Shown here piece by piece: positions 1 to 49,545 of a stretch of DNA of 64,000 nucleotides. Position 1 is the first letter of the stretch. Each line of letters begins with the position of its first letter. Below the pieces are notes generated by a model. It made no database searches. It worked only from the letters and a program-made list of their open reading frames with translations, and was not told the DNA's origin. The translations under genes and the position numbers were made by a program. Origin of the DNA: a virus; IMG/VR virus record IMGVR_UViG_3300032213_001373, positions 38,328 through 102,327 of that record; one strand, given 5' to 3'.

Positions 1-576
1 TAGATCTTCAGTAACTCTTCGACCAGATTTAAAGTGAATTAAACGATCTTTGAGAGTTGGATGATGGGGGTCATTTCCGAGTGTTCTGATTTCTTCCCCG
101 GCTCTTTTACGAAGCGTTATTTCTCCACGCATTTTTTCTAAGTTTGCTGATGCAGTTGGTCCAGCAAGATGTCCTTGATCATTTAAGAAATCAACAACTT
201 CACTGTGTTTAAACCATGTGCGTGTACCACGTTGAAGTGAATCTACGTCCATTGGGTCTGTACCCTCTGTTCTGCGACCCATACCCTTTTGTTCTACATA
301 GTGTGGAATTTCTCGTGTGTGAGTCCAACGTTTTACAGAATCTGGGTGTACGCCATATAACGAAGAAATCTCATGCATCTGTAGATATGGCAAACCTTCC
401 TCATCAACTGGGGTTGGCTTAGCTGTTGATTGGCGTACATAGTTAGTACCCATCAATTCGCTATATCTAGACTCATTAAGAGGTTTAGCAGAGGTTAATC
501 CGGCCACTGGTTCGAACTTTTCGACCTTGGGGGTATTTTCTGATTTGGCTTTTGGTAGGTTCTTTTTCTTAGCCAT
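1..576 (-). CDS. Partial (runs off left edge) protein with an Xis/MerR-like helix-turn-helix
   Basis: Not in ORF track. Manual translation from ATG at 576 (directly after the TAA of the upstream gene) is open to position 1: MAKKKNLPKAK...YLQMHEISSLYGVHPDSVKRWTHTREIPH...TWFKHSEVVDFL, an excisionase-like HTH pattern. Confidence 0.65.
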   Translation of the reverse strand, partial: MAKKKNLPKAKSENTPKVEKFEPVAGLTSAKPLNESRYSELMGTNYVRQSTAKPTPVDEEGLPYLQMHEISSLYGVHPDSVKRWTHTREIPHYVEQKGMGRRTEGTDPMDVDSLQRGTRTWFKHSEVVDFLNDQGHLAGPTASANLEKMRGEITLRKRAGEEIRTLGNDPHHPTLKDRLIHFKSGRRVTEDL

Positions 577-1119
577 TTAGTTCCACCGTGGTCTCAAGTG
601 TGTGAAGTTGTGAGCAACTCTAGGGTTAAATTCAATAGGCACAGTAGCAGAGATGTTTGCCTTACCATCATTAACTAGGTGAGGTGGTGGGGCAAGCGTT
701 GCTTTAGGAGCATTGCGCTTTACATTCATAATTAAGCTACCACCATTGTCTGCTGGGGTAACTCTAGCCTTCAAGCGACGATCAGGCTGCAAACCTTCCG
801 GCCACATATACTGACCTGGATCAATGCGCTCGCCTTTGTGTACACCACGTTGGTAGCCGCGTTGGTTTTGTCTAGCCTTTAAAGAATCAAGAACAGAGTC
901 TGAGACTGCATATGGTTTACCTTTATCGTCACGACGTGAACGAATGGTTCCTAAGTAACCGTCTGGATATTCTGCTGAAGGAGTTCTGCCAACACCAAGA
1001 CGTAAGAAATCCATGGAACTGCGTGGAACGATAGGCGTACCTCCACCACCTGTGGTGGTGTATGCGCCAACGTATCCACTAGCACCTAGATACTGCCAGT
1101 TCTGGTGTGAGGATGGCAT
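577..1119 (-). CDS. Hypothetical protein
   Basis: 180-aa ORF, TAATG-coupled to the upstream gene. Confidence 0.7.
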   Translation of the reverse strand: MPSSHQNWQYLGASGYVGAYTTTGGGGTPIVPRSSMDFLRLGVGRTPSAEYPDGYLGTIRSRRDDKGKPYAVSDSVLDSLKARQNQRGYQRGVHKGERIDPGQYMWPEGLQPDRRLKARVTPADNGGSLIMNVKRNAPKATLAPPPHLVNDGKANISATVPIEFNPRVAHNFTHLRPRWN

Positions 1120-10986: not shown

Positions 10987-11305
10987 ACTTACCCTCCGAG
11001 TTTATCCATTCGTCCAAGGTCAATCCTTTGGCCTTGTATCTGCGCTGTGCTGCATTTCTTTCTCGATGGGACATACCACCAAATATTCCATGCAGCTCGT
11101 CATTCATGATAGCTTCTTTCAAACACTCTTTGCGTACAGGGCAGGGAGGTCGACCGTCCTTGCCCCAACAAATAGCTTTTGCTTGATCTGCTATCGGCTT
11201 ATATAAAGTTTTGTCTCTTGGCGGGAAAAATATTTCCGTATCTTCCCCTCGGCACTTTGCCTTATAACGCCAAGCCCAAGACGCTTCGTCCTGGTAATCG
11301 TCCAT
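10961..11305 (-). CDS. whiB: WhiB family transcription factor
   Basis: AKCRGED..FFP...AKAIC...CPVRKECL...GIFGG. Confidence 0.9.
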   Translation of the reverse strand: MDDYQDEASWAWRYKAKCRGEDTEIFFPPRDKTLYKPIADQAKAICWGKDGRPPCPVRKECLKEAIMNDELHGIFGGMSHRERNAAQRRYKAKGLTLDEWINSEGKYGKAKDSS

Positions 11306-20907: not shown

Positions 20908-21182
20908 GCCCTTACCCTCTTCCTACGACGCATTAGGCGCCGCTCATGAGGAGTTGTTGCTCCCCAAATACCATCCAGCTCAGGATGCTTAAGTGCATAC
21001 TCAAGACACCCTAGTGTTAACGGACAGCTCTTACAAATAGCCTTTGCTGTATACATATCTGCATACTCTTCAGGTGTCGAGTCTGTAAGGTCGTCCTTCT
21101 CCCTTGTAAAGAAGAGTTCAGGATCTACCTGTGCACAGAGCTGACTGCCATCAAACAATTGGTGTTCCGAATAGAGATCCAT
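20904..21182 (-). CDS. whiB: Second WhiB family transcription factor
   Basis: LCAQVDPELFF...AKAICKSCP...CLEYAL...GIWGATT..ERR. Confidence 0.88.
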   Translation of the reverse strand: MDLYSEHQLFDGSQLCAQVDPELFFTREKDDLTDSTPEEYADMYTAKAICKSCPLTLGCLEYALKHPELDGIWGATTPHERRLMRRRKRVRA

Positions 21183-42925: not shown

Positions 42926-43150
42926 CTACTCCTTGTTAGGCTTTGTAAAGGTAGAAGTTTCTGGATCGTAAGTAGCGTTAGGGACTAGGTTCGACAGATC
43001 TTCGTTTGAAGTACGGTCGGTTACGTCAAGGATTAGCGGTTCGCTTAAAAAGATAGCGGCAAGACGCTCGTCAGTATGCAAGATGTCTGTTACTACGTTG
43101 TCGATAATAAATGCCAGCTTAATAGGTGGCAAAGGTTTTTCTTCGGCCAT
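42926..43150 (-). CDS. Small hypothetical protein (possible fibre chaperone)
   Basis: 74-aa ORF, TAATG-coupled to the Cys-rich gene upstream. Confidence 0.65.
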   Translation of the reverse strand: MAEEKPLPPIKLAFIIDNVVTDILHTDERLAAIFLSEPLILDVTDRTSNEDLSNLVPNATYDPETSTFTKPNKE

Positions 43151-43386
43151 TACATTTCCTCCTTATATGATACTTGTACTGCTTCCCACTTGTGCAGAGG
43201 ACAAGACGCATTTGGAAGCTTTGTCTTAAGCTTCATAATGCATCCACACTCTTTGCACTGAGAGGTTGCTTTAATAAACTTGTCGCACCCACGGCAGATA
43301 TCAAGGCGCTGTGAGGCGATATCTGTCTCTACTCGTCCAATATTTTTATTGAACAAGTCCCATGGTCTAGCTGGTCTGTCGCTCAT
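43150..43386 (-). CDS. Small Cys-rich protein (DUF6171-like)
   Basis: RLDICRGC...CKECGC.M..K......CP..KW. Confidence 0.7.
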   Translation of the reverse strand: MSDRPARPWDLFNKNIGRVETDIASQRLDICRGCDKFIKATSQCKECGCIMKLKTKLPNASCPLHKWEAVQVSYKEEM

Positions 43387-43394
43387 TTGTTCTC

Positions 43395-45164
43395 CTATAT
43401 AGTGGCCAAGAAGTTGTCGGTTGTAGACCCTTGGTTTCCCGTGGAAGGTCCCTTAATTATACCCACAGATGTTCCCCTAATAGGGCTGGAGGGCGTAAGG
43501 CTTAGGGTAGAACCTACTTGAGACCCGGTCAAGTTAGACCCTGAATACGCTGAAGAAGTTATAGTGCTTCCTACGGTTGTTACGTATACAGATCCGACTG
43601 TAGCAAAGCCTGAAGTATTAGTAGCCAAGTTTAAACTAGAGGCTACAGCAACAGTTCCAGACACAGAGCTAACCAATACAAGGTCGCTAGTATAGGTAGT
43701 CACGCTTCTAGTAGAGGTAAAGCAAGAGTATGTGGTGCGGTTTCTAGTTGCTGTAAAGCAAGAATAGAAAGTAGGTTGTACTACCTGAGACGTAAAGCAG
43801 CTGTAGGTAATTGGATTATTAACTGAGCGGGTAGAGGTATAGCAGCTGTAGGTAATAGGGTTATTGACTAAACGGGTAGAGGTGTAGCAGCTATATGTAA
43901 TAGGGTTAGGTACGTTGCGAGTAGAGGTGTAGCAATAATATTGAGTGTAGGTAAAAGGAACAGTCGTAGTGCTACAAGACCAAGATCCCGCTGTAGTAGT
44001 TGTTGTTGCACAGTAGGTAAAGTTAGCCCCAGCGGTGGTTCCGTTACAGGTTTTTTGTTGAACTTCACTACCAGTACAATAACCACTAAATAAGCTAATA
44101 AGTCTACAACTTGTAGTTGTAGATCCTGGACTTTGAGTAGGAATTTCACAGCATCCTGAAAGATCCCAAATATTAGCTGCGGTTCTTACACCTCCGGAAC
44201 AATAGCTAGAGTTTACAGTCTCTGAGAACTCTCCCGCACAAGAACCTGCTGGACAACCAAAACCCATGGTATCTACACGGCCTTGGTCGCAAACAGCAGT
44301 GCTACCGCCTCCGCCTTGGCTAACTCCAGAACAACACTGGTTTGATGGTGGGTTGCTAGAGCTAGTTACTTGACTCTGGTCGCAAACATTGCTTTGACCG
44401 CCGCCGCCTTGGCTAACACCAGAGCAGCATTGGTTTGATGGAGGGTTACTAGTACTTGTTACTTGGCCTTGGTCGCAAACAGTGCTGGTGCCACCACCGC
44501 CTTGGGTAACTCCAGAACAGCATTGATTTGAAGGAGGGTTGCTTGTACTTGTTACTTGGTTTCCTGTACAGGCTGTGCCGCCTCCGCTTGATGTTACTCC
44601 AGAACAGCAGTTGGATGCGGGAGGGTTGTTTTGGTTTGTTATAGGCGTTTGATCACAGACAGTTACCGAACCTGTAACTACTGGAGAACAACAGTTTCCT
44701 GCCGGAGGATTGTTAAACTCACTTACTAAACCTTGATCACAAAAGGTATTTGTAACAGATGTAAATCGTGGGTAGCTTGCCCACCAAGAACCAGAGTCTG
44801 TAACCCAAAATGCTGGACCCACACCGCCGTTTGCATCTGTCTGTACCTTTACATCAGTATTACCTAGATTAATAGATGCTAAAGGATAGCTAGTTGCAGC
44901 ATCGTCTGATATAGCGCTATTAGATCCGCTAATGCGCCAGTTGCCGCGGGTAGCATTCCAAATTTGACCTGAATCAGCTGTACCTAATCCAAGAGCCGTA
45001 GAGGCTCGGTTAAAAGCGTCTTGTATTTTAGAAGCAAACCATTGTTGCCATACGCCACCAACTTTAACGTAGCCAGAAGTAGCGGTCTTCCATTGACCGC
45101 CAACTTTTACAGAAAGACTAGTAATAGTCTTCCAGGCACCATTAACTTTGGATTGACCAGGCAT
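43395..45164 (-). CDS. Cys-rich fibre/receptor-binding protein with nested repeats
   Basis: N-terminal KVGG.WK adaptor repeats, then a beta-rich domain interrupted by a 32-Cys insertion. Confidence 0.75.
   Translation of the reverse strand: MPGQSKVNGAWKTITSLSVKVGGQWKTATSGYVKVGGVWQQWFASKIQDAFNRASTALGLGTADSGQIWNATRGNWRISGSNSAISDDAATSYPLASINLGNTDVKVQTDANGGVGPAFWVTDSGSWWASYPRFTSVTNTFCDQGLVSEFNNPPAGNCCSPVVTGSVTVCDQTPITNQNNPPASNCCSGVTSSGGGTACTGNQVTSTSNPPSNQCCSGVTQGGGGTSTVCDQGQVTSTSNPPSNQCCSGVSQGGGGQSNVCDQSQVTSSSNPPSNQCCSGVSQGGGGSTAVCDQGRVDTMGFGCPAGSCAGEFSETVNSSYCSGGVRTAANIWDLSGCCEIPTQSPGSTTTSCRLISLFSGYCTGSEVQQKTCNGTTAGANFTYCATTTTTAGSWSCSTTTVPFTYTQYYCYTSTRNVPNPITYSCYTSTRLVNNPITYSCYTSTRSVNNPITYSCFTSQVVQPTFYSCFTATRNRTTYSCFTSTRSVTTYTSDLVLVSSVSGTVAVASSLNLATNTSGFATVGSVYVTTVGSTITSSAYSGSNLTGSQVGSTLSLTPSSPIRGTSVGIIKGPSTGNQGSTTDNFLATI
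43700..44741 (-). repeat. Mirror-nested coding repeats: 7x C-x15/16-CC-type modules and 7x YSCxTxx modules
   Basis: CDQxxVTSTSNPPSNQCCSGV series and NPITYSCYTSTR series in the translation. Confidence 0.85.
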
Positions 45165-45974: not shown

Positions 45975-46310
45975 TTACGCTACCTCAGAACCAAAAGCCT
46001 GGAATGTTAGGTTAGCTGTTGATGCCACCACAGTAACGCTGTCAGCAGCTGACAGCGTGATACCTAATGTAAAGGTAGTGGTGGTATTAGCTGGGACAGT
46101 TGTGTCATAGGCTAGGTATTGCTTGTTGTCTAGAGCTGCGTTATCTTCACGAAGCGCAATACGGTAGGTTGCTGCGGTAGTTCCGCGGTTGCAGATCACG
46201 ATTGTAGACACAACGGCTGAGGTGTTGGATGGCACTGCGTATAGCTGGCTGCCTCCCGCTACGTTAGCTGCTGGCGCAACCTGACCTAGAATCTTATATG
46301 TCGTTGCCAA
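45975..46310 (-). CDS. Virion structural protein
   Basis: MATTYKILGQ...LYAVP...STIVICN...AFGSEVA beta-sandwich-like sequence. Confidence 0.65.
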   Translation of the reverse strand: MATTYKILGQVAPAANVAGGSQLYAVPSNTSAVVSTIVICNRGTTAATYRIALREDNAALDNKQYLAYDTTVPANTTTTFTLGITLSAADSVTVVASTANLTFQAFGSEVA

Positions 46311-47358
46311 GAGATTGCTCCTTCAAATAGAAAGCTAGATTAGCTGTAAGGCGAGGATCCTGTGGGCTTAATTCTACAGCTTTGCGCCCGTATTGTAGGG
46401 CTTTGTCAAACTTTCCTAGGCGATAATAAGAGATAGCTGCAAAGTCCCAGGGTGCTGCCCCCCAGGCAAACTCTTCACATAGATACTCCAGAGGCTTTTC
46501 TTTTATAGCTAACGCCTTTTCTGCAGCCTGATAGCAGGCAGTCCAACGTTCGTTTTGATAGTAATAGTCCGCTAGGTCTACTAAAGCTTCTCGTCTATCA
46601 GGACACTCATCATGTGCCTTTAGTAACCACTCTTCTTTTTCTGAAACCATCTTAGCGATATAACGCATGGAAGCTGCCCGCTCCGGCTTCCAGGTGGCTT
46701 TTGGCAATGAGAGATGGCGCATAAACTCTTGTGTGGCTTCTTCAAAACGACCGTGAAAGAACAACTCGCGGGCGTAGTAAAAAGTGTTTCTATCATCATA
46801 TGGGTCTTCTTGAACAGCCTGAGCTAGCAAAGGCATGTACTGGTTACGAGACTTCGAGTGGTCAGGGTAGTGGTGAATCTCTAACGGGATCCAATCCTGA
46901 ACCTCAATAGATTGGTTGGTAACTATAACCTCGTGTACTGGGTGCTTCCAACGATAGCCTTTACGAGCGTGGATCTTATCTCCACCATACTCAAGTCCGG
47001 GTGTTCCATCCTCTTTCCAACTCCACGTGTATTTATATCGTGGTCTGGTTACGGCTGGGTTTATATTGTCAAAGCCTGAACGCCAACCCTCAACTAGTAC
47101 TTCATCCATATCAAGGGCAATGCAGTAGTCAATGTCAGCTGGGATTGCAGCTAGAGAAGCGTTGCGGGCGTCATCAAACCGCCAAGGTTTAACGCTAATG
47201 TCTATTACGTTTATTCCCAAAGACTTAGCTAGCTCTACGGTTCCATCAGTAGATCCAGTATCAGCTATGAGGATGTAGTCCGCTTCTTTGGCAGACTGAT
47301 ACCAGCGCTCAACGAAATGCTTTTCGTTTAACGCGATTGTGTAAACCGCTATCTTCAT
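46294..47358 (-). CDS. Family 2 glycosyltransferase with TPR repeats
   Basis: IALNE, DTGSTDGT, FDDARN, LDMDE, PVHE; TPR-like C-terminus. Confidence 0.88.
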   Translation of the reverse strand: MKIAVYTIALNEKHFVERWYQSAKEADYILIADTGSTDGTVELAKSLGINVIDISVKPWRFDDARNASLAAIPADIDYCIALDMDEVLVEGWRSGFDNINPAVTRPRYKYTWSWKEDGTPGLEYGGDKIHARKGYRWKHPVHEVIVTNQSIEVQDWIPLEIHHYPDHSKSRNQYMPLLAQAVQEDPYDDRNTFYYARELFFHGRFEEATQEFMRHLSLPKATWKPERAASMRYIAKMVSEKEEWLLKAHDECPDRREALVDLADYYYQNERWTACYQAAEKALAIKEKPLEYLCEEFAWGAAPWDFAAISYYRLGKFDKALQYGRKAVELSPQDPRLTANLAFYLKEQSLGNDI

Positions 47359-47374: not shown

Positions 47375-47488
47375 TTATTCTTCAGTGAATACTAGATCGT
47401 ATCCAACCAAGTTTCCTTGGTCATCCCGGACTTCAAACTTCTCTGCTCCGGTCTCTGGGTCAATGCCTAAGCTTACTTTAGTTGTCAT
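47375..47488 (-). CDS. 37-aa acidic peptide (possible fibre chaperone)
   Basis: Manual translation MTTKVSLGIDPETGAEKFEVRDDQGNLVGYDLVFTEE; ATGA-coupled. Confidence 0.6.
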   Translation of the reverse strand: MTTKVSLGIDPETGAEKFEVRDDQGNLVGYDLVFTEE

Positions 47489-49545
47489 GATAGTCGTCCC
47501 CACGGTGCGATAGCTGTTGTTGTAAATGAGTTTGAGGTAGAAGGTAGGTCAGTCTGTGACGCTACATAACCTGATAGACGAGGTCCTAGGCTGGACAACG
47601 CCGCTGGGATATTTGCAAACGCTGTGTATACGGTAGGAGCTGTTGTTCCTACGTAGAGGACAGCAATCGCATATCGAGTTCCAGCTTGTAACGTGTAAGT
47701 AGATGGGTATCCACCGGTAGTACTAAAAGCACGGGTAAAGACTGTGTTTGTAGTACCTAGAAGGGTTACGTCACTGTCTGTGCGAGCAACCAATGTAGCG
47801 GTAGTACCGTTAAAGGTATAAAGACCTAGGCGTACAGTCTGCGCTCCAGTAGCTGCAGTGTTAGCTGAAACCACTGTAAGGTTGCTGATAGTTGCTGTCC
47901 ACATAGGGCTAAAGAATGTGAAGTATGCGTTTCCGCTTGACAACACGCCGCTAGAGTTCGTGGTACGTGGATATACGTCAACTATGCTCGTAGTTTGGTT
48001 TAGGTTACCTGCAATATCCTGGAAGATATCTTTCCAAACCAATCCGGTAGTCTGAGCTGAGTCTGCAACCAAAGCACGACCGTTTACTCCTACAGCTAAC
48101 TTATCTAAAGTTCCAGTGCCTGTTCCAGCTAAAAGGTCTCCCTTTGCTGTGTACTGGTGGCTTCCTAGAAGGGTTGTAGTGCTTGTAGGTAAGGTAAGTG
48201 TACCCGTGTTAGTAATGCTAGATATTACAGGAGAGGTGAGTGTTAGTCCTGCTACTGTAGTAGTTGCCGACCCCAAAGTAAGTGTGCTAGAACCTAGTGT
48301 GATAGTTGAGTTTGCTAGCTTAACATTGGTGACGTTAGCGTCAACAATCTTTACTGTAGTAACAGTTCCATCGGTAGGTGTACGTGTATTTGTAAGTCTT
48401 GTATCAGTTCCGTAGACAACCTGAGAGTTAGAGGCATCTCCCGAAGCCGGAAAGTCTTTTGTTGATGCTGTACCTAGACCAGTAATCTGGGTATTTGCAA
48501 GCGATAAGACAGATTGATTAAGACCTAATACAGCAGAGGTAGAAGACCCCGTATTTGTAACAGGTCCTGTTACAGAGATAACGCCTGAAGGTCCAGTAGG
48601 TCCTATTAGTCCTTGAGGACCGGTAGGTCCTGTCCCACCTTGAGGCCCGGTTGCACCTTGAGGCCCAACAATTTGACCGACGCTTGTCCAAGCTGTGCCG
48701 TTCCATACGTAGAGGTCTCCGTCGGCATCAACAATGTATGCGTCATTAATATCATTTCCTGAAGAAGGTAGGTTTACAACAGCAGCTACGCTTCCTTTAA
48801 AATCAATAGAAGTTCCTTGTGGACCAGTAGGACCTGTTATTCCAGACGGACCAGTAGGACCTGTTTCACCCTGAGGACCCGTAGGTCCTAAGCTAGAAAC
48901 AGTAATGCTATTTCCCATGTTAGGGTGGTTTTGACATACATATGTCAAAGAGCTTGGAGCGTCATATGGGACTTCAAAAATAATAGTTCCAACTGCTACG
49001 CCAGCGTTAGTTACGCCAGTACTGTAAACGTTTGCAGGGTTGTACGCTAATCCGGATGTTTGAATCCAAAATGGGTGACCTGGAGCGTTTACGTTTATTA
49101 CGTATCGGTGACCACGGATAAAAGAAATAACCGGGTTGTTTGCCCCGTTAACAATATAGATTCCACCGGCAGGTGATGTAACAGAAAGGGTAATACCACC
49201 ACTAGGACCAGTTGGTCCTGTTGGTCCTGTAGGTCCAACCGGGCCAGTTACTCCTTGAGGAATACCAAAGTTATAAACTGCTGCGGTAGTAGTTCCGCTG
49301 TTAGTTACTGTTGCTGAAGCTCCTGGAGAAAGAGTGTTTACAGTTCCAACTGTTGCAGTTGAGCTAGGACCTGTAGGGCCTGTTGTACCAGAAGAATACT
49401 GAAGACTGTTCCAAGGGCTAGTACCGTTACCGATTTTAAACTTACCGGTGTCGTGTTCATACCCAGCTTCACCTTGAGATAGTACAGGGTTAGAAGTAGT
49501 CCACTCTGTTGCAGTGCCTCGTCTAAACTGAATCTTAACAGCCAT
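47485..49545 (-). CDS. Tail fibre with Mtd_N-like N-terminus, collagen repeats and a cupredoxin-like domain
   Basis: IQFRRGTATEW...NPVL..GE.G.E.DTGKFKIG; GPT repeats; GHPF...YVCQNHPNMG. Confidence 0.8.
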   Translation of the reverse strand: MAVKIQFRRGTATEWTTSNPVLSQGEAGYEHDTGKFKIGNGTSPWNSLQYSSGTTGPTGPSSTATVGTVNTLSPGASATVTNSGTTTAAVYNFGIPQGVTGPVGPTGPTGPTGPSGGITLSVTSPAGGIYIVNGANNPVISFIRGHRYVINVNAPGHPFWIQTSGLAYNPANVYSTGVTNAGVAVGTIIFEVPYDAPSSLTYVCQNHPNMGNSITVSSLGPTGPQGETGPTGPSGITGPTGPQGTSIDFKGSVAAVVNLPSSGNDINDAYIVDADGDLYVWNGTAWTSVGQIVGPQGATGPQGGTGPTGPQGLIGPTGPSGVISVTGPVTNTGSSTSAVLGLNQSVLSLANTQITGLGTASTKDFPASGDASNSQVVYGTDTRLTNTRTPTDGTVTTVKIVDANVTNVKLANSTITLGSSTLTLGSATTTVAGLTLTSPVISSITNTGTLTLPTSTTTLLGSHQYTAKGDLLAGTGTGTLDKLAVGVNGRALVADSAQTTGLVWKDIFQDIAGNLNQTTSIVDVYPRTTNSSGVLSSGNAYFTFFSPMWTATISNLTVVSANTAATGAQTVRLGLYTFNGTTATLVARTDSDVTLLGTTNTVFTRAFSTTGGYPSTYTLQAGTRYAIAVLYVGTTAPTVYTAFANIPAALSSLGPRLSGYVASQTDLPSTSNSFTTTAIAPWGRLS

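What the first reader, a model, noticed from the sequence alone, without database searches (positions are those of the whole stretch)
43395..45164. Telescoping 'stalk-and-knob' fibre: 7 three-Cys modules mirrored by 7 one-Cys modules around a 4-Cys tip
Seen: from residue 142 the protein has seven consecutive modules with 3 Cys each (five CDQ/CTG...NPP...CCS, then CDQGRV..C..C, then CSGG..CC), a central segment with 4 Cys, then seven short modules with 1 Cys each (WSCSTT, YYCYTSTR, YSCYTSTR, YSCYTSTR, YSCFTSQ, YSCFTATR, YSCFTSTR); 32 Cys in total. The order is mirrored: near-identical modules 4 and 5 match the two identical NPITYSCYTSTR units, deviant module 3 (CTGN) matches deviant SCFTSQVVQ, and the divergent inner modules match the divergent inner returns. 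The Cys-free flanks look like one beta-sandwich split by the insert. Inference: the chain runs out and back as a long hairpin in which each 3+1 pair completes a 4-Cys unit (two disulfides or one Zn), so stalk length changes only by paired duplication at two separate DNA sites, with a variable knob at the tip. This resembles the stalk-and-knob of bovine ultralong CDR-H3. I know of no described phage receptor-binding protein built this way.
Basis: partly seen in the sequence, partly recalled or inferred. Interest (0 to 1): 0.88.

Follow-up and report, generated by a model that had tools for sequence, protein, structure and literature searches.

The report
Cysteine-laddered hairpin stalk in phage lectin
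A tail-region protein of an uncultured freshwater-type actinobacterial phage is a sugar-binding-type beta-sandwich from which a very long out-and-back hairpin projects; its two arms are kept in exact register by cysteine nodes and it ends in a swappable tip, a way of building a phage receptor-binding protein that I could not find described.

Summary
The 589-aa ORF lies on the minus strand and has 32 Cys arranged as 7x3, then 4, then 7x1.

The gap from the last Cys of outgoing module i to the first Cys of module i+1, plus 1, reads 12,13,15,15,15,14. The return-arm Cys spacings read from the C-terminal base are also 12,13,15,15,15,14.
- The law holds in 22 distinct homolog Cys patterns with 8 different interval signatures.
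- Where one arm changed, the other changed identically.
- The same intervals compared in parallel order match only 24 of 112 times.
- Homologs have 6+6 or 7+7 nodes. Distant relatives are plain 1+1 ladders with 4+4 to 9+9 Cys around an exactly central turn.
- The one mismatched homolog sits on a single contig and is a repeat-to-repeat deletion of a 604-aa form seen on 8 contigs.

The Cys-free flanks fold together as a ConA-like lectin/CBM sandwich (Z 16.8) like the glycan-binding domains of actinophage receptor-binding proteins. Tip cassettes are exchanged between lineages.

Not shown: disulfide versus metal chemistry, the oligomeric state, and atomic contacts. The closest known design is the T4 gp37 needle (a stem plus tip inserted in a base domain, with 7 Fe sites). 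I therefore rate this a new variant of a known kind, not a kind without precedent.

The parts
45030..45164 (-). Residues 1-45: N-terminal beta-meander with repeated VKVGG.WK-type motifs, probably the virion attachment arm. The ATG overlaps the stop of the upstream 78-aa gene.
   Evidence: PHROG 25859/36019 (unknown function) match residues 4-51 only. AF2 gives short strands 4-49 with pLDDT 77-89. Many homologs lack this piece.
44742..45029 (-). Residues 46-141: N-terminal half of the ConA-like lectin/CBM beta-sandwich.
   Evidence: VIA-align: 4b1m_A CBM66 Z 16.8, rmsd 2.5, 153 aligned, model range 52..589; TM4 gp23 receptor-binding domain Z 15.0. Douge gp20 Z 16.4. pLDDT 88-97. Conserved across 150 homologs.
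44109..44741 (-). Residues 142-352: outgoing arm with seven 3-Cys modules (C-x15-CC five times, then C-x11-C-x4-C, then C-x15-CC).
   Evidence: A 93-nt tandem array at 44279-44559 covers modules 3-5. AF2 gives long strands separated by loops.
43983..44108 (-). Residues 353-394: 4-Cys tip ('knob'), a swappable cassette.
   Evidence: Identity to P0001 falls to 6-17% in P0008/10/11/15/16 although their flanks are 70-95% identical. Four tip types are distributed independently of flank similarity. pLDDT 84-90.
43695..43982 (-). Residues 395-490: return arm with seven 1-Cys units of 12-15 aa.
   Evidence: A 45-nt tandem array lies at 43788-43934. AF2 gives almost continuous strand 401-501, kinked at the NP positions. 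Spacings mirror the outgoing arm.
43398..43694 (-). Residues 491-589: C-terminal half of the lectin/CBM beta-sandwich.
   Evidence: Same structural matches as the N-terminal half. pLDDT 95-98.
43150..43386 (-). 78-aa six-Cys DUF6171 protein, 8 nt downstream: a conserved companion gene.
   Evidence: Pfam PF19668 at 29.7 bits, cut-off 27. A DUF6171-like ORF follows the fibre gene in 43 of 44 distinct loci with complex Cys modules and in 0 of 5 simple 1+1 ladder loci. It is read as one fused ORF in P0020 and L030.

Best explanation
The gene encodes a virion (tail-fibre region) protein of a roughly 102-kb contractile-tailed phage of low-GC Actinobacteria.

Base and stalk. The base is a ConA-like lectin/CBM beta-sandwich of the kind actinophage receptor-binding proteins use to bind cell-wall glycans. 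Two neighbouring strands of that sandwich are drawn out into a very long antiparallel hairpin (residues about 126-501).

Nodes. The two arms are held in register at seven nodes. At each node the outgoing arm supplies a 3-Cys module: one Cys in the strand plus a CC at the end of a 15-residue loop. The return arm supplies one Cys.
- Outgoing modules always carry an odd number of Cys (3 or 5), and nodes lie 12-15 residues apart. Full pairing therefore needs exactly one cross-arm bond per node.
- The most economical reading is one cross-arm disulfide (the rung, the only bond in the simple 1+1 relatives) plus one disulfide closing the outgoing loop.

Tip and length. The hairpin ends in a small 4-Cys tip that is exchanged as a cassette between phages and is the likely specificity element. 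Stalk length changes in whole nodes: 31 aa on one arm plus 15 aa on the other, that is 93 nt and 45 nt at two sites several hundred nt apart. Indels on one arm only would break the register.

Shown: the Cys layout, the mirror register, equal arm counts, the lectin fold of the flanks, tip mosaicism, and the genomic context.
Inferred: disulfide chemistry and connectivity, the receptor-binding role, the physical length, and any role of the DUF6171 companion in maturation.
For: Mirror register:
- P0001 gives 12,13,15,15,15,14 on both arms.
- The law holds in 22 distinct Cys patterns with 8 interval signatures. The same intervals compared in parallel order match only 24 of 112 times.
- Concerted change: the P0017/L004/L006 lineage reads 12,10,13,12,15,15 on both arms. 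The CTG module and the Q..QP return unit both sit at index 4 there, against index 3 in P0001.
- A GGG bulge in the outgoing linker co-occurs with Pro in the mirrored return unit: counts 59/2/18/26.

Equal arm counts:
- 6+6 in P0007 and P0012-14 against 7+7 in P0001.
- 11 of 13 distinct simple-ladder patterns have the largest gap exactly central, with arms of 4+4 to 9+9.
- The only mismatch, P0019 (5 out, 8 back), is on one 4-kb contig. It equals its cluster mate P0201 (604 aa, 8 contigs) minus a deletion between repeats M1 and M3.

Cys counts: even in 179 of 200 relatives and often not a multiple of 4. The extra Cys come as pairs inside the loops.

Structure:
- AF2 mean pLDDT is 84.7, with long strands 126-149 and 401-501.
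- The top Foldseek PDB rows, though not significant, are heads carrying long beta-hairpins.
- Flanks fold as a lectin/CBM: Z 16.8, 15.0 and 16.4. Douge CBM-like domains bind mycobacterial glycans (PMC13033339).

Tip: mosaic between lineages.

Context: fibre, sheath, tube and baseplate genes nearby; two WhiB genes; sheath closest to Streptomyces BRock-like phages.
Against: - I could not read model coordinates, so no Cys-Cys distance or module-to-return contact was measured.
- AF2 confidence is low in the middle of the stalk (pLDDT 53-73 at residues 200-290 and 430-460) and in the ladder of a simple relative (40-56).
- Phage assembly takes place in a reducing cytoplasm, and no dedicated thiol oxidase was identified. 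The genome has one thioredoxin. The Erv1 search was uninformative because its controls did not ring.
- Even Cys numbers also fit metal sites that use 2, 4 or 6 Cys per node.
- Other subfamilies follow the +1 rule only loosely. P0023 reads 12,13,12,13,17 against 12,12,16,13,16. Some carry multi-Cys modules on the return arm, which I did not decode.
- A two-stranded ribbon about 100 residues long is unlikely to stand alone, and the oligomeric state is unknown.
- No virion proteomics or binding data exist for this family.
Confidence: 0.7

Rival explanations
1. Same out-and-back stalk, but the nodes are metal sites (Zn, Fe or similar) and not disulfides. This would be a thiolate version of the histidine-iron ladder of the T4 gp37 needle, possibly formed on the axis of a trimer (2, 4 or 6 Cys per chain per node).
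For: - T4 gp37 has a stem plus tip inserted in a base domain, with seven iron sites along the needle (PMC6957217).
- Assembly occurs in a reducing cytoplasm.
- The companion DUF6171 protein has a CxxC...CxxCxC...C layout like a metal-binding ribbon and co-occurs with the complex nodes.
- Even Cys counts are compatible with 2, 4 or 6 ligands per node.
Against: - The protein has no His at all.
- Adjacent CC pairs are poor joint ligands for one ion (general coordination-chemistry knowledge).
- Extra Cys appear as isolated pairs inside surface loops, and there are 2-Cys tips of the form C-x15-C. These look like loop-closing disulfides.
- Totals are often not multiples of 4: 30, 34 and 38.
- A Cys-free, Tyr-rich insert variant exists (P0151), so no metal is essential to the design.
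Confidence: 0.17
2. The arms are in register, but each outgoing arm pairs with the return arm of a neighbouring chain in an intertwined trimer. This would give a six-stranded needle as in gp37, so the rungs are inter-chain bonds.
For: - Many phage fibres are trimers, and Douge gp20, whose CBM-like domain is the best structural match, is trimeric (PMC13033339).
- A lone two-stranded ribbon of this length seems too flimsy (inference).
- The register law does not say which chain supplies the partner arm.
Against: - AF2 builds the hairpin confidently near the base and near the tip from a single chain.
- CBM-type phage domains also occur as monomeric decorations, for example the J-1 Dit CBM2 (Z 12.2).
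- No evidence of oligomerisation was obtained here.
Confidence: 0.25
3. The two repeat arrays are independent low-complexity or solenoid segments, and the apparent mirror symmetry is coincidence or shared ancestry with no structural coupling.
For: Close homologs share ancestry, so identical patterns among them are not independent observations.
Against: - Eight different interval signatures all obey the mirror rule, while parallel order fails (24 of 112).
- Three intervals changed in concert between lineages.
- Arm counts are equal from 4+4 to 9+9.
- The only unequal form is a singleton repeat deletion.
Confidence: 0.03

Closest known systems
T4 long tail fibre tip gp37 (needle; domains D10/D11)
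   Same: An elongated stem plus a small tip is inserted into a base domain. The chain therefore goes out and returns, with a periodic series of seven cross-links along the stem, and the tip determines the receptor (PMC6957217).
   Different: - In gp37 the base is a 'collar' fold; here it is a lectin sandwich.
- In gp37 the cross-links are His-coordinated iron ions in a trimer; here there is no His and the nodes are 3+1 Cys.
- There is no sequence similarity.
- Here the outgoing arm carries a disulfide-type loop at every node.
CBM/lectin-fold receptor-binding domains of actinophages (Douge gp20 CTD and gp23 BppU-CBM, TM4 gp23 receptor-binding domain) and CBM66
   Same: The flanks adopt the same beta-sandwich fold: Z 16.4, 14.2, 15.0 and 16.8. 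The host is actinobacterial. The Douge domains bind cell-wall glycans (PMC13033339).
   Different: Sequence identity is 8-14% only. None of these is described with a hairpin insert of about 360 residues. The sugar-binding residues were not compared.
Bovine ultralong CDR-H3 (stalk and knob)
   Same: A beta-ribbon stalk projects a small disulfide-bonded knob away from a beta-sandwich scaffold, and the knob is the diversified part (my own knowledge, not tested here).
   Different: The scaffold there is an immunoglobulin. The stalk is short and has no cysteine rungs. Diversification is somatic. This is an analogy only.
Cystine-ladder beta-hairpin peptides (theta-defensins, tachyplesin/protegrin type)
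   Same: An antiparallel hairpin is tied by cross-strand disulfides in nested (mirror) order (my own knowledge).
   Different: Those are peptides of about 18 residues with a rung every second residue. Here the rungs are 9-15 residues apart over some 100 residues per arm, inside a 589-aa virion protein.

Membership tests
ConA-like lectin/glucanase (CBM66-like) fold | A two-sheet jelly-roll beta-sandwich of about 150-200 residues | tested here: met
   4b1m_A Z 16.8, rmsd 2.5, 153 of 165 residues aligned over model range 52..589, so both flanks are needed. There are dozens of legume lectin, GH43 C-domain and GH16 rows at Z 10-14.
ConA-like lectin/glucanase (CBM66-like) fold | Sequence-family membership (a Pfam or other profile hit) | tested here: not met
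   No Pfam family at E<=1. No PDB sequence match better than E=0.29. The similarity is structural only.
ConA-like lectin/glucanase (CBM66-like) fold | Carbohydrate-binding site residues or measured binding | not tested
   No residue-level superposition was available to me, and binding needs an experiment.
T4 gp37-type needle | Elongated out-and-back stem plus tip inserted into a base domain | tested here: met
   The insert lies between the two halves of the sandwich. The arms are in mirror register. The tip is central.
T4 gp37-type needle | HxH motifs coordinating iron along the axis | tested here: not met
   The protein has zero His (composition).
T4 gp37-type needle | Homotrimer with intertwined chains | not testable with these tools
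   The oligomeric state could not be established here.
Cystine-ladder hairpin (generic) | Nested, mirror-order Cys pairing across an antiparallel hairpin | tested here: inconclusive
   Spacing symmetry and equal arm counts fit this feature. No S-S distance or chemical evidence was obtainable.
Phage tail fibre / receptor-binding protein (functional class) | Encoded in the tail/fibre module and carried on the virion | tested here: inconclusive
   The neighbours are fibre, collagen-like fibre, sheath, tube and baseplate genes. Presence on the virion was not tested.

The most novel reading that the evidence does not exclude
This is the founding example of a large, undescribed family of actinophage adhesins (466 cluster representatives at E<=0.001).
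- A lectin sandwich carries a 'cystine-ladder stalk'.
- The stalk length evolves in quantised nodes through concerted indels at two distant sites in the gene.
- The nodes range from 1+1 to 3+1 and 5+1 Cys.
- The tip is a horizontally exchanged specificity cassette.
- Correct oxidation of the complex nodes depends on a dedicated small CxxC protein (DUF6171) encoded next door. That would be a phage-encoded route to making many disulfides for a virion protein.
Probability: 0.4. Interest if true: 0.85.

Novelty: new variant of a known kind. Interest (0 to 1): 0.74.

Why it matters
- It would add a new structural solution to the catalogue of phage receptor-binding proteins: a rigid reach element built from a single hairpin, tied by cysteine nodes, with length set in steps and a plug-in tip.
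- It gives a rare, sequence-readable case of structural coupling. Two repeat arrays hundreds of nucleotides apart must change together, which is useful for studying how concerted indels arise.
- The family is abundant in metagenomic phages with actinophage hallmarks, whose hosts (low-GC freshwater Actinobacteria are likely) are hard to culture. A readable tip cassette could therefore help link phages to hosts.
- The tight linkage with DUF6171 offers a testable lead on how a phage matures a protein with 16 potential disulfides.
- A stalk-and-tip scaffold of adjustable length may also interest protein engineers.

Tried and rejected
- Plus-strand reading of the coordinates: full of stops. The gene is on the minus strand.
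- Pfam, PDB sequence search and tblastn against 50,697 phage records: no family, no meaningful match, no cultured relative.
- Foldseek against the PDB with the whole model: nothing at E<=0.001. BFVD returned only uncharacterised proteins of uncultured phages.
- Homotrimer prediction for a short relative (P0118 x3): verdict 'no answer' (score 0.00, controls not run). It counts neither for nor against oligomerisation.
- AF2 of the simple 4+4 ladder P0118: lectin domain above 95 pLDDT but ladder at 40-56, so the simple ladders get no independent structural support.
- A shuffle test for palindromic gap lists had no power for uniform ladders. I replaced it with the central-turn test.
- P0019 looked like a refutation (5 outgoing modules, 8 return units). 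It was rejected as such after its cluster mate P0201 showed it is a singleton repeat-to-repeat deletion.
- Erv1/ALR search in the genome: uninformative, because the controls did not ring. Glutaredoxin: none.
- Literature searches for a cysteine-laddered phage fibre, 'cystine ladder' plus bacteriophage, and DUF6171 found nothing relevant. Pam3 and other phages use virion disulfides, but differently. Tentaclins are unrelated.
- The 'all Cys4 zinc sites' reading was considered and down-weighted; see the rival explanations.
Full report
**1. What is there**

The coordinates 43395-45164 hold one ORF on the minus strand (589 aa). The plus strand is closed by many stops. Its ATG overlaps the stop of an upstream 78-aa gene, and a 78-aa six-Cys gene follows 8 nt downstream.

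- seven 3-Cys modules at residues 142-339;
- four Cys at 353-385;
- seven single-Cys units at 397-481.

The protein is Ser/Thr/Gly-rich and contains no His at all. At the DNA level there are two separate tandem arrays: a 93-nt period x 3.0 copies (44279-44559, outgoing modules 3-5) and a 45-nt period x about 3 copies (43788-43934, return units). Modules 4 and 5 are 78% identical in DNA, and return units 4 and 5 are 84% identical. These are therefore old duplications, not recent ones.

**2. Genomic setting**

The window is part of a 102,327-bp IMG/VR virus record with direct terminal repeats.
- Neighbours on the same strand are tail-fibre genes. They include a collagen-like fibre with an Mtd_N domain, a GT2-TPR glycosyltransferase, and then sheath, tube, hub, tape-measure-like and baseplate wedge genes.
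- The sheath is most similar (about 36%) to Streptomyces BRock-like myoviruses.
- The genome has two WhiB genes, and GC is about 45%.

I read this as a contractile-tailed phage of low-GC Actinobacteria. A freshwater host is an inference from these features and from the 'uncultured Caudovirales' relatives.

**3. The family**

Sequence searches found 61 relatives in the word-indexed search. The exhaustive search found 466 cluster representatives at E<=0.001.
- All of those with a source name are 'hypothetical protein', except one mislabelled TraN.
- No Pfam family matches. PHROGs match only the first roughly 50 residues.
- Every full-length relative keeps an N-terminal flank of about 100-145 residues and a C-terminal flank of about 100 residues. 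Everything between the flanks varies in length and Cys pattern.
- The Cys number is even in 179 of 200 relatives, and most of the odd ones are fragments. It is frequently not a multiple of four.

**4. The decisive test: mirror register**

Take the gap from the last Cys of outgoing module i to the first Cys of module i+1 and add one. For this protein the result is 12,13,15,15,15,14. The return-arm Cys spacings read from the C-terminal base are also 12,13,15,15,15,14.

The rule holds across 22 distinct Cys patterns with eight interval signatures. The same intervals compared in parallel order match only 24 of 112 times.

The rule also survives change:
- The P0017/L004/L006/P0201 lineage reads 12,10,13,12,15,15 on both arms.
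- In that lineage the deviant CTG module and the deviant Q..QP return unit both sit at index 4, against index 3 here.
- Modules with five Cys, where an extra pair replaces the NPP loop, keep the rule. The loop is therefore an excursion that does not count towards arm length.
- A GGG bulge in an outgoing linker goes with a Pro kink in the mirrored return unit (counts 59/2/18/26).

Geometrically the rule means that the first Cys of a module, its CC pair and the mirrored return Cys all meet at one node.

**5. Arm counts**

- Homologs with one node fewer lost one 31-aa module and one 15-aa unit from the matching position: P0007 and P0012-14 are 6+6, against 7+7 here.
- Distant relatives are plain ladders with one Cys per unit on both arms. 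In 11 of 13 distinct patterns the largest gap (the turn) is exactly central, with arms from 4+4 to 9+9. The chance estimate for all eleven is about 10^-12.
- The one counter-example, P0019 (5 out, 8 back), occurs on a single 4-kb contig. Its cluster mate at 90% identity or more, P0201 (604 aa, eight contigs), has all seven modules and obeys the rule.
- The difference between the two is an in-frame deletion between two nearly identical repeats. It is either an assembly collapse or a rare deletion variant.

**6. Structure prediction**

AF2 with a 150-sequence alignment gave mean pLDDT 84.7.
- The flanks score above 95.
- There are long strands at 126-149 and an almost continuous strand at 401-501.
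- Confidence is good near the base and tip of the stalk but only 53-73 in the repetitive middle.
- I had no access to coordinates, so no contact was measured. This is the main gap in the analysis.

Foldseek found no significant PDB match. Its top rows are pore-form toxins, which are a head with a long beta-hairpin.

The exhaustive structural aligner showed that the two flanks together form a ConA-like lectin/CBM sandwich:

| Match | Z |
|---|---|
| CBM66 (rmsd 2.5, 153 aligned across model range 52..589) | 16.8 |
| Douge gp20 | 16.4 |
| TM4 gp23 receptor-binding domain | 15.0 |
| Douge baseplate chain | 14.2 |
| J-1 Dit CBM2 | 12.2 |

The Douge CBM-like domains bind mycobacterial surface glycans experimentally (PMC13033339). 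The 'one sandwich split by an insert' idea is therefore supported.

A second AF2 run on a simple 4+4 ladder gave a confident sandwich but an unconfident ladder.

**7. The tip**

In proteins whose flanks are 70-95% identical to this one, the tip is 6-17% identical.

I recognised four tip cassettes. Their distribution does not follow flank similarity. For example, P0008 (N-domain 90% identical) has tip B, whereas P0009 (69%) has tip A, and tip C occurs in three otherwise different stalk lineages. This is the mosaic pattern expected of a specificity element.

**8. Chemistry**

- Outgoing modules have 3 or 5 Cys and return units have one. Each node therefore needs exactly one cross-arm partner if all Cys are paired.
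- The extra in-loop pairs, the 2-Cys tips (C-x15-C), totals of 30/34/38, the extracellular life of a virion and the absence of His all favour disulfides.
- A Cys-free, Tyr-rich insert variant (P0151) shows that the hairpin design does not depend on any metal.
- Metal sites are not excluded. I put disulfides at roughly 4:1.
- Virion disulfides are documented in other phages, for example Pam3 (PMC9942802).

**9. Companion gene**

A DUF6171-like small Cys protein follows the fibre gene in 43 of 44 distinct loci with complex nodes and in none of 5 simple-ladder loci. It is read as one fused ORF in P0020 and L030.

The simple-ladder loci may be one or two clades, so this contrast is suggestive only. 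It fits a maturation factor that is needed when the pairing is not dictated by the hairpin alone.

**10. Comparison with what is known**

The nearest described design is the T4 gp37 needle. In gp37 an elongated domain D11 (stem 882-931 and 960-1009, tip 932-959) is inserted into base domain D10, and seven iron atoms lie along the needle (PMC6957217).

Here the topology is the same. The base fold, the cross-link chemistry (Cys nodes, no His), the per-node loops and the sequence are all different. Bovine CDR-H3 and cystine-ladder peptides are analogies only.

Searches of the held literature found no description of this family.

**11. Verdict**

- The out-and-back, node-by-node pairing and the paired length changes are strongly supported from sequence alone.
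- The lectin base and the mosaic tip make a receptor-binding role likely.
- Disulfide chemistry, oligomeric state and function remain to be shown.
- I class it as a new variant of a known kind (phage receptor-binding protein with an inserted stem and tip), with interest 0.74.

Noticed in passing
window 43150-43386 (-), and loci L002-L081: A DUF6171 six-Cys 78-aa gene lies directly downstream of the fibre gene in 43 of 44 distinct loci with complex Cys modules and in 0 of 5 simple 1+1 ladder loci. It is read as one fused ORF in P0020 and L030.
   Followed up: partly
window 42926-43150 (-): The 74-aa gene after DUF6171 is conserved downstream of the fibre gene even in loci that lack DUF6171. It carries an ..IID..VV...H..E.LAA..LS.P.. 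motif in L027, L028, L035, L039 and L030. Its function is unknown.
   Followed up: no
protein P0151 (392 aa; also P0139, P0153): These family members have no Cys at all. Between the same lectin flanks their insert is a Tyr/Pro/Ser-rich repeat (YYAG/SYYPG-like). The stalk idea may therefore exist in a disulfide-free form.
   Followed up: no
proteins P0030-P0044, loci L008-L013, L023: This subfamily carries its multi-Cys (C7C5C5CC-type) modules on the C-terminal arm next to the base, the reverse of the window's layout. Its pairing logic was not decoded.
   Followed up: no
window about 11051-11272 and 20934-21143 (G000:49378-49599 and 59261-59470, minus strand): There are two WhiB-family genes (66 and 62 bits), a hallmark of actinobacterial phages.
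   Followed up: partly
G000:C1:37601-37831 (-), just outside the window: There is one thioredoxin-family gene (56.5 bits). Any link to maturation of the fibre is untested.
   Followed up: no
window 47485-49545 (-): A 686-aa fibre protein has an Mtd_N domain (52 bits) and collagen-like G-P-T/G-x-y runs. A GT2-TPR glycosyltransferase gene lies next to it at 46294-47358.
   Followed up: no
protein P0061 (632 aa): A distant family member is named 'conjugal transfer mating pair stabilization protein TraN' by JGI. This is probably an annotation artefact of its Cys-rich composition.
   Followed up: no
locus L037 (703-3165): An 820-aa relative has 52 Cys, with eleven consecutive 4-Cys modules (gaps 7,7,6 and linkers of 11-14) on the outgoing side. 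It is the longest array seen and was not analysed for a matching return arm.
   Followed up: no
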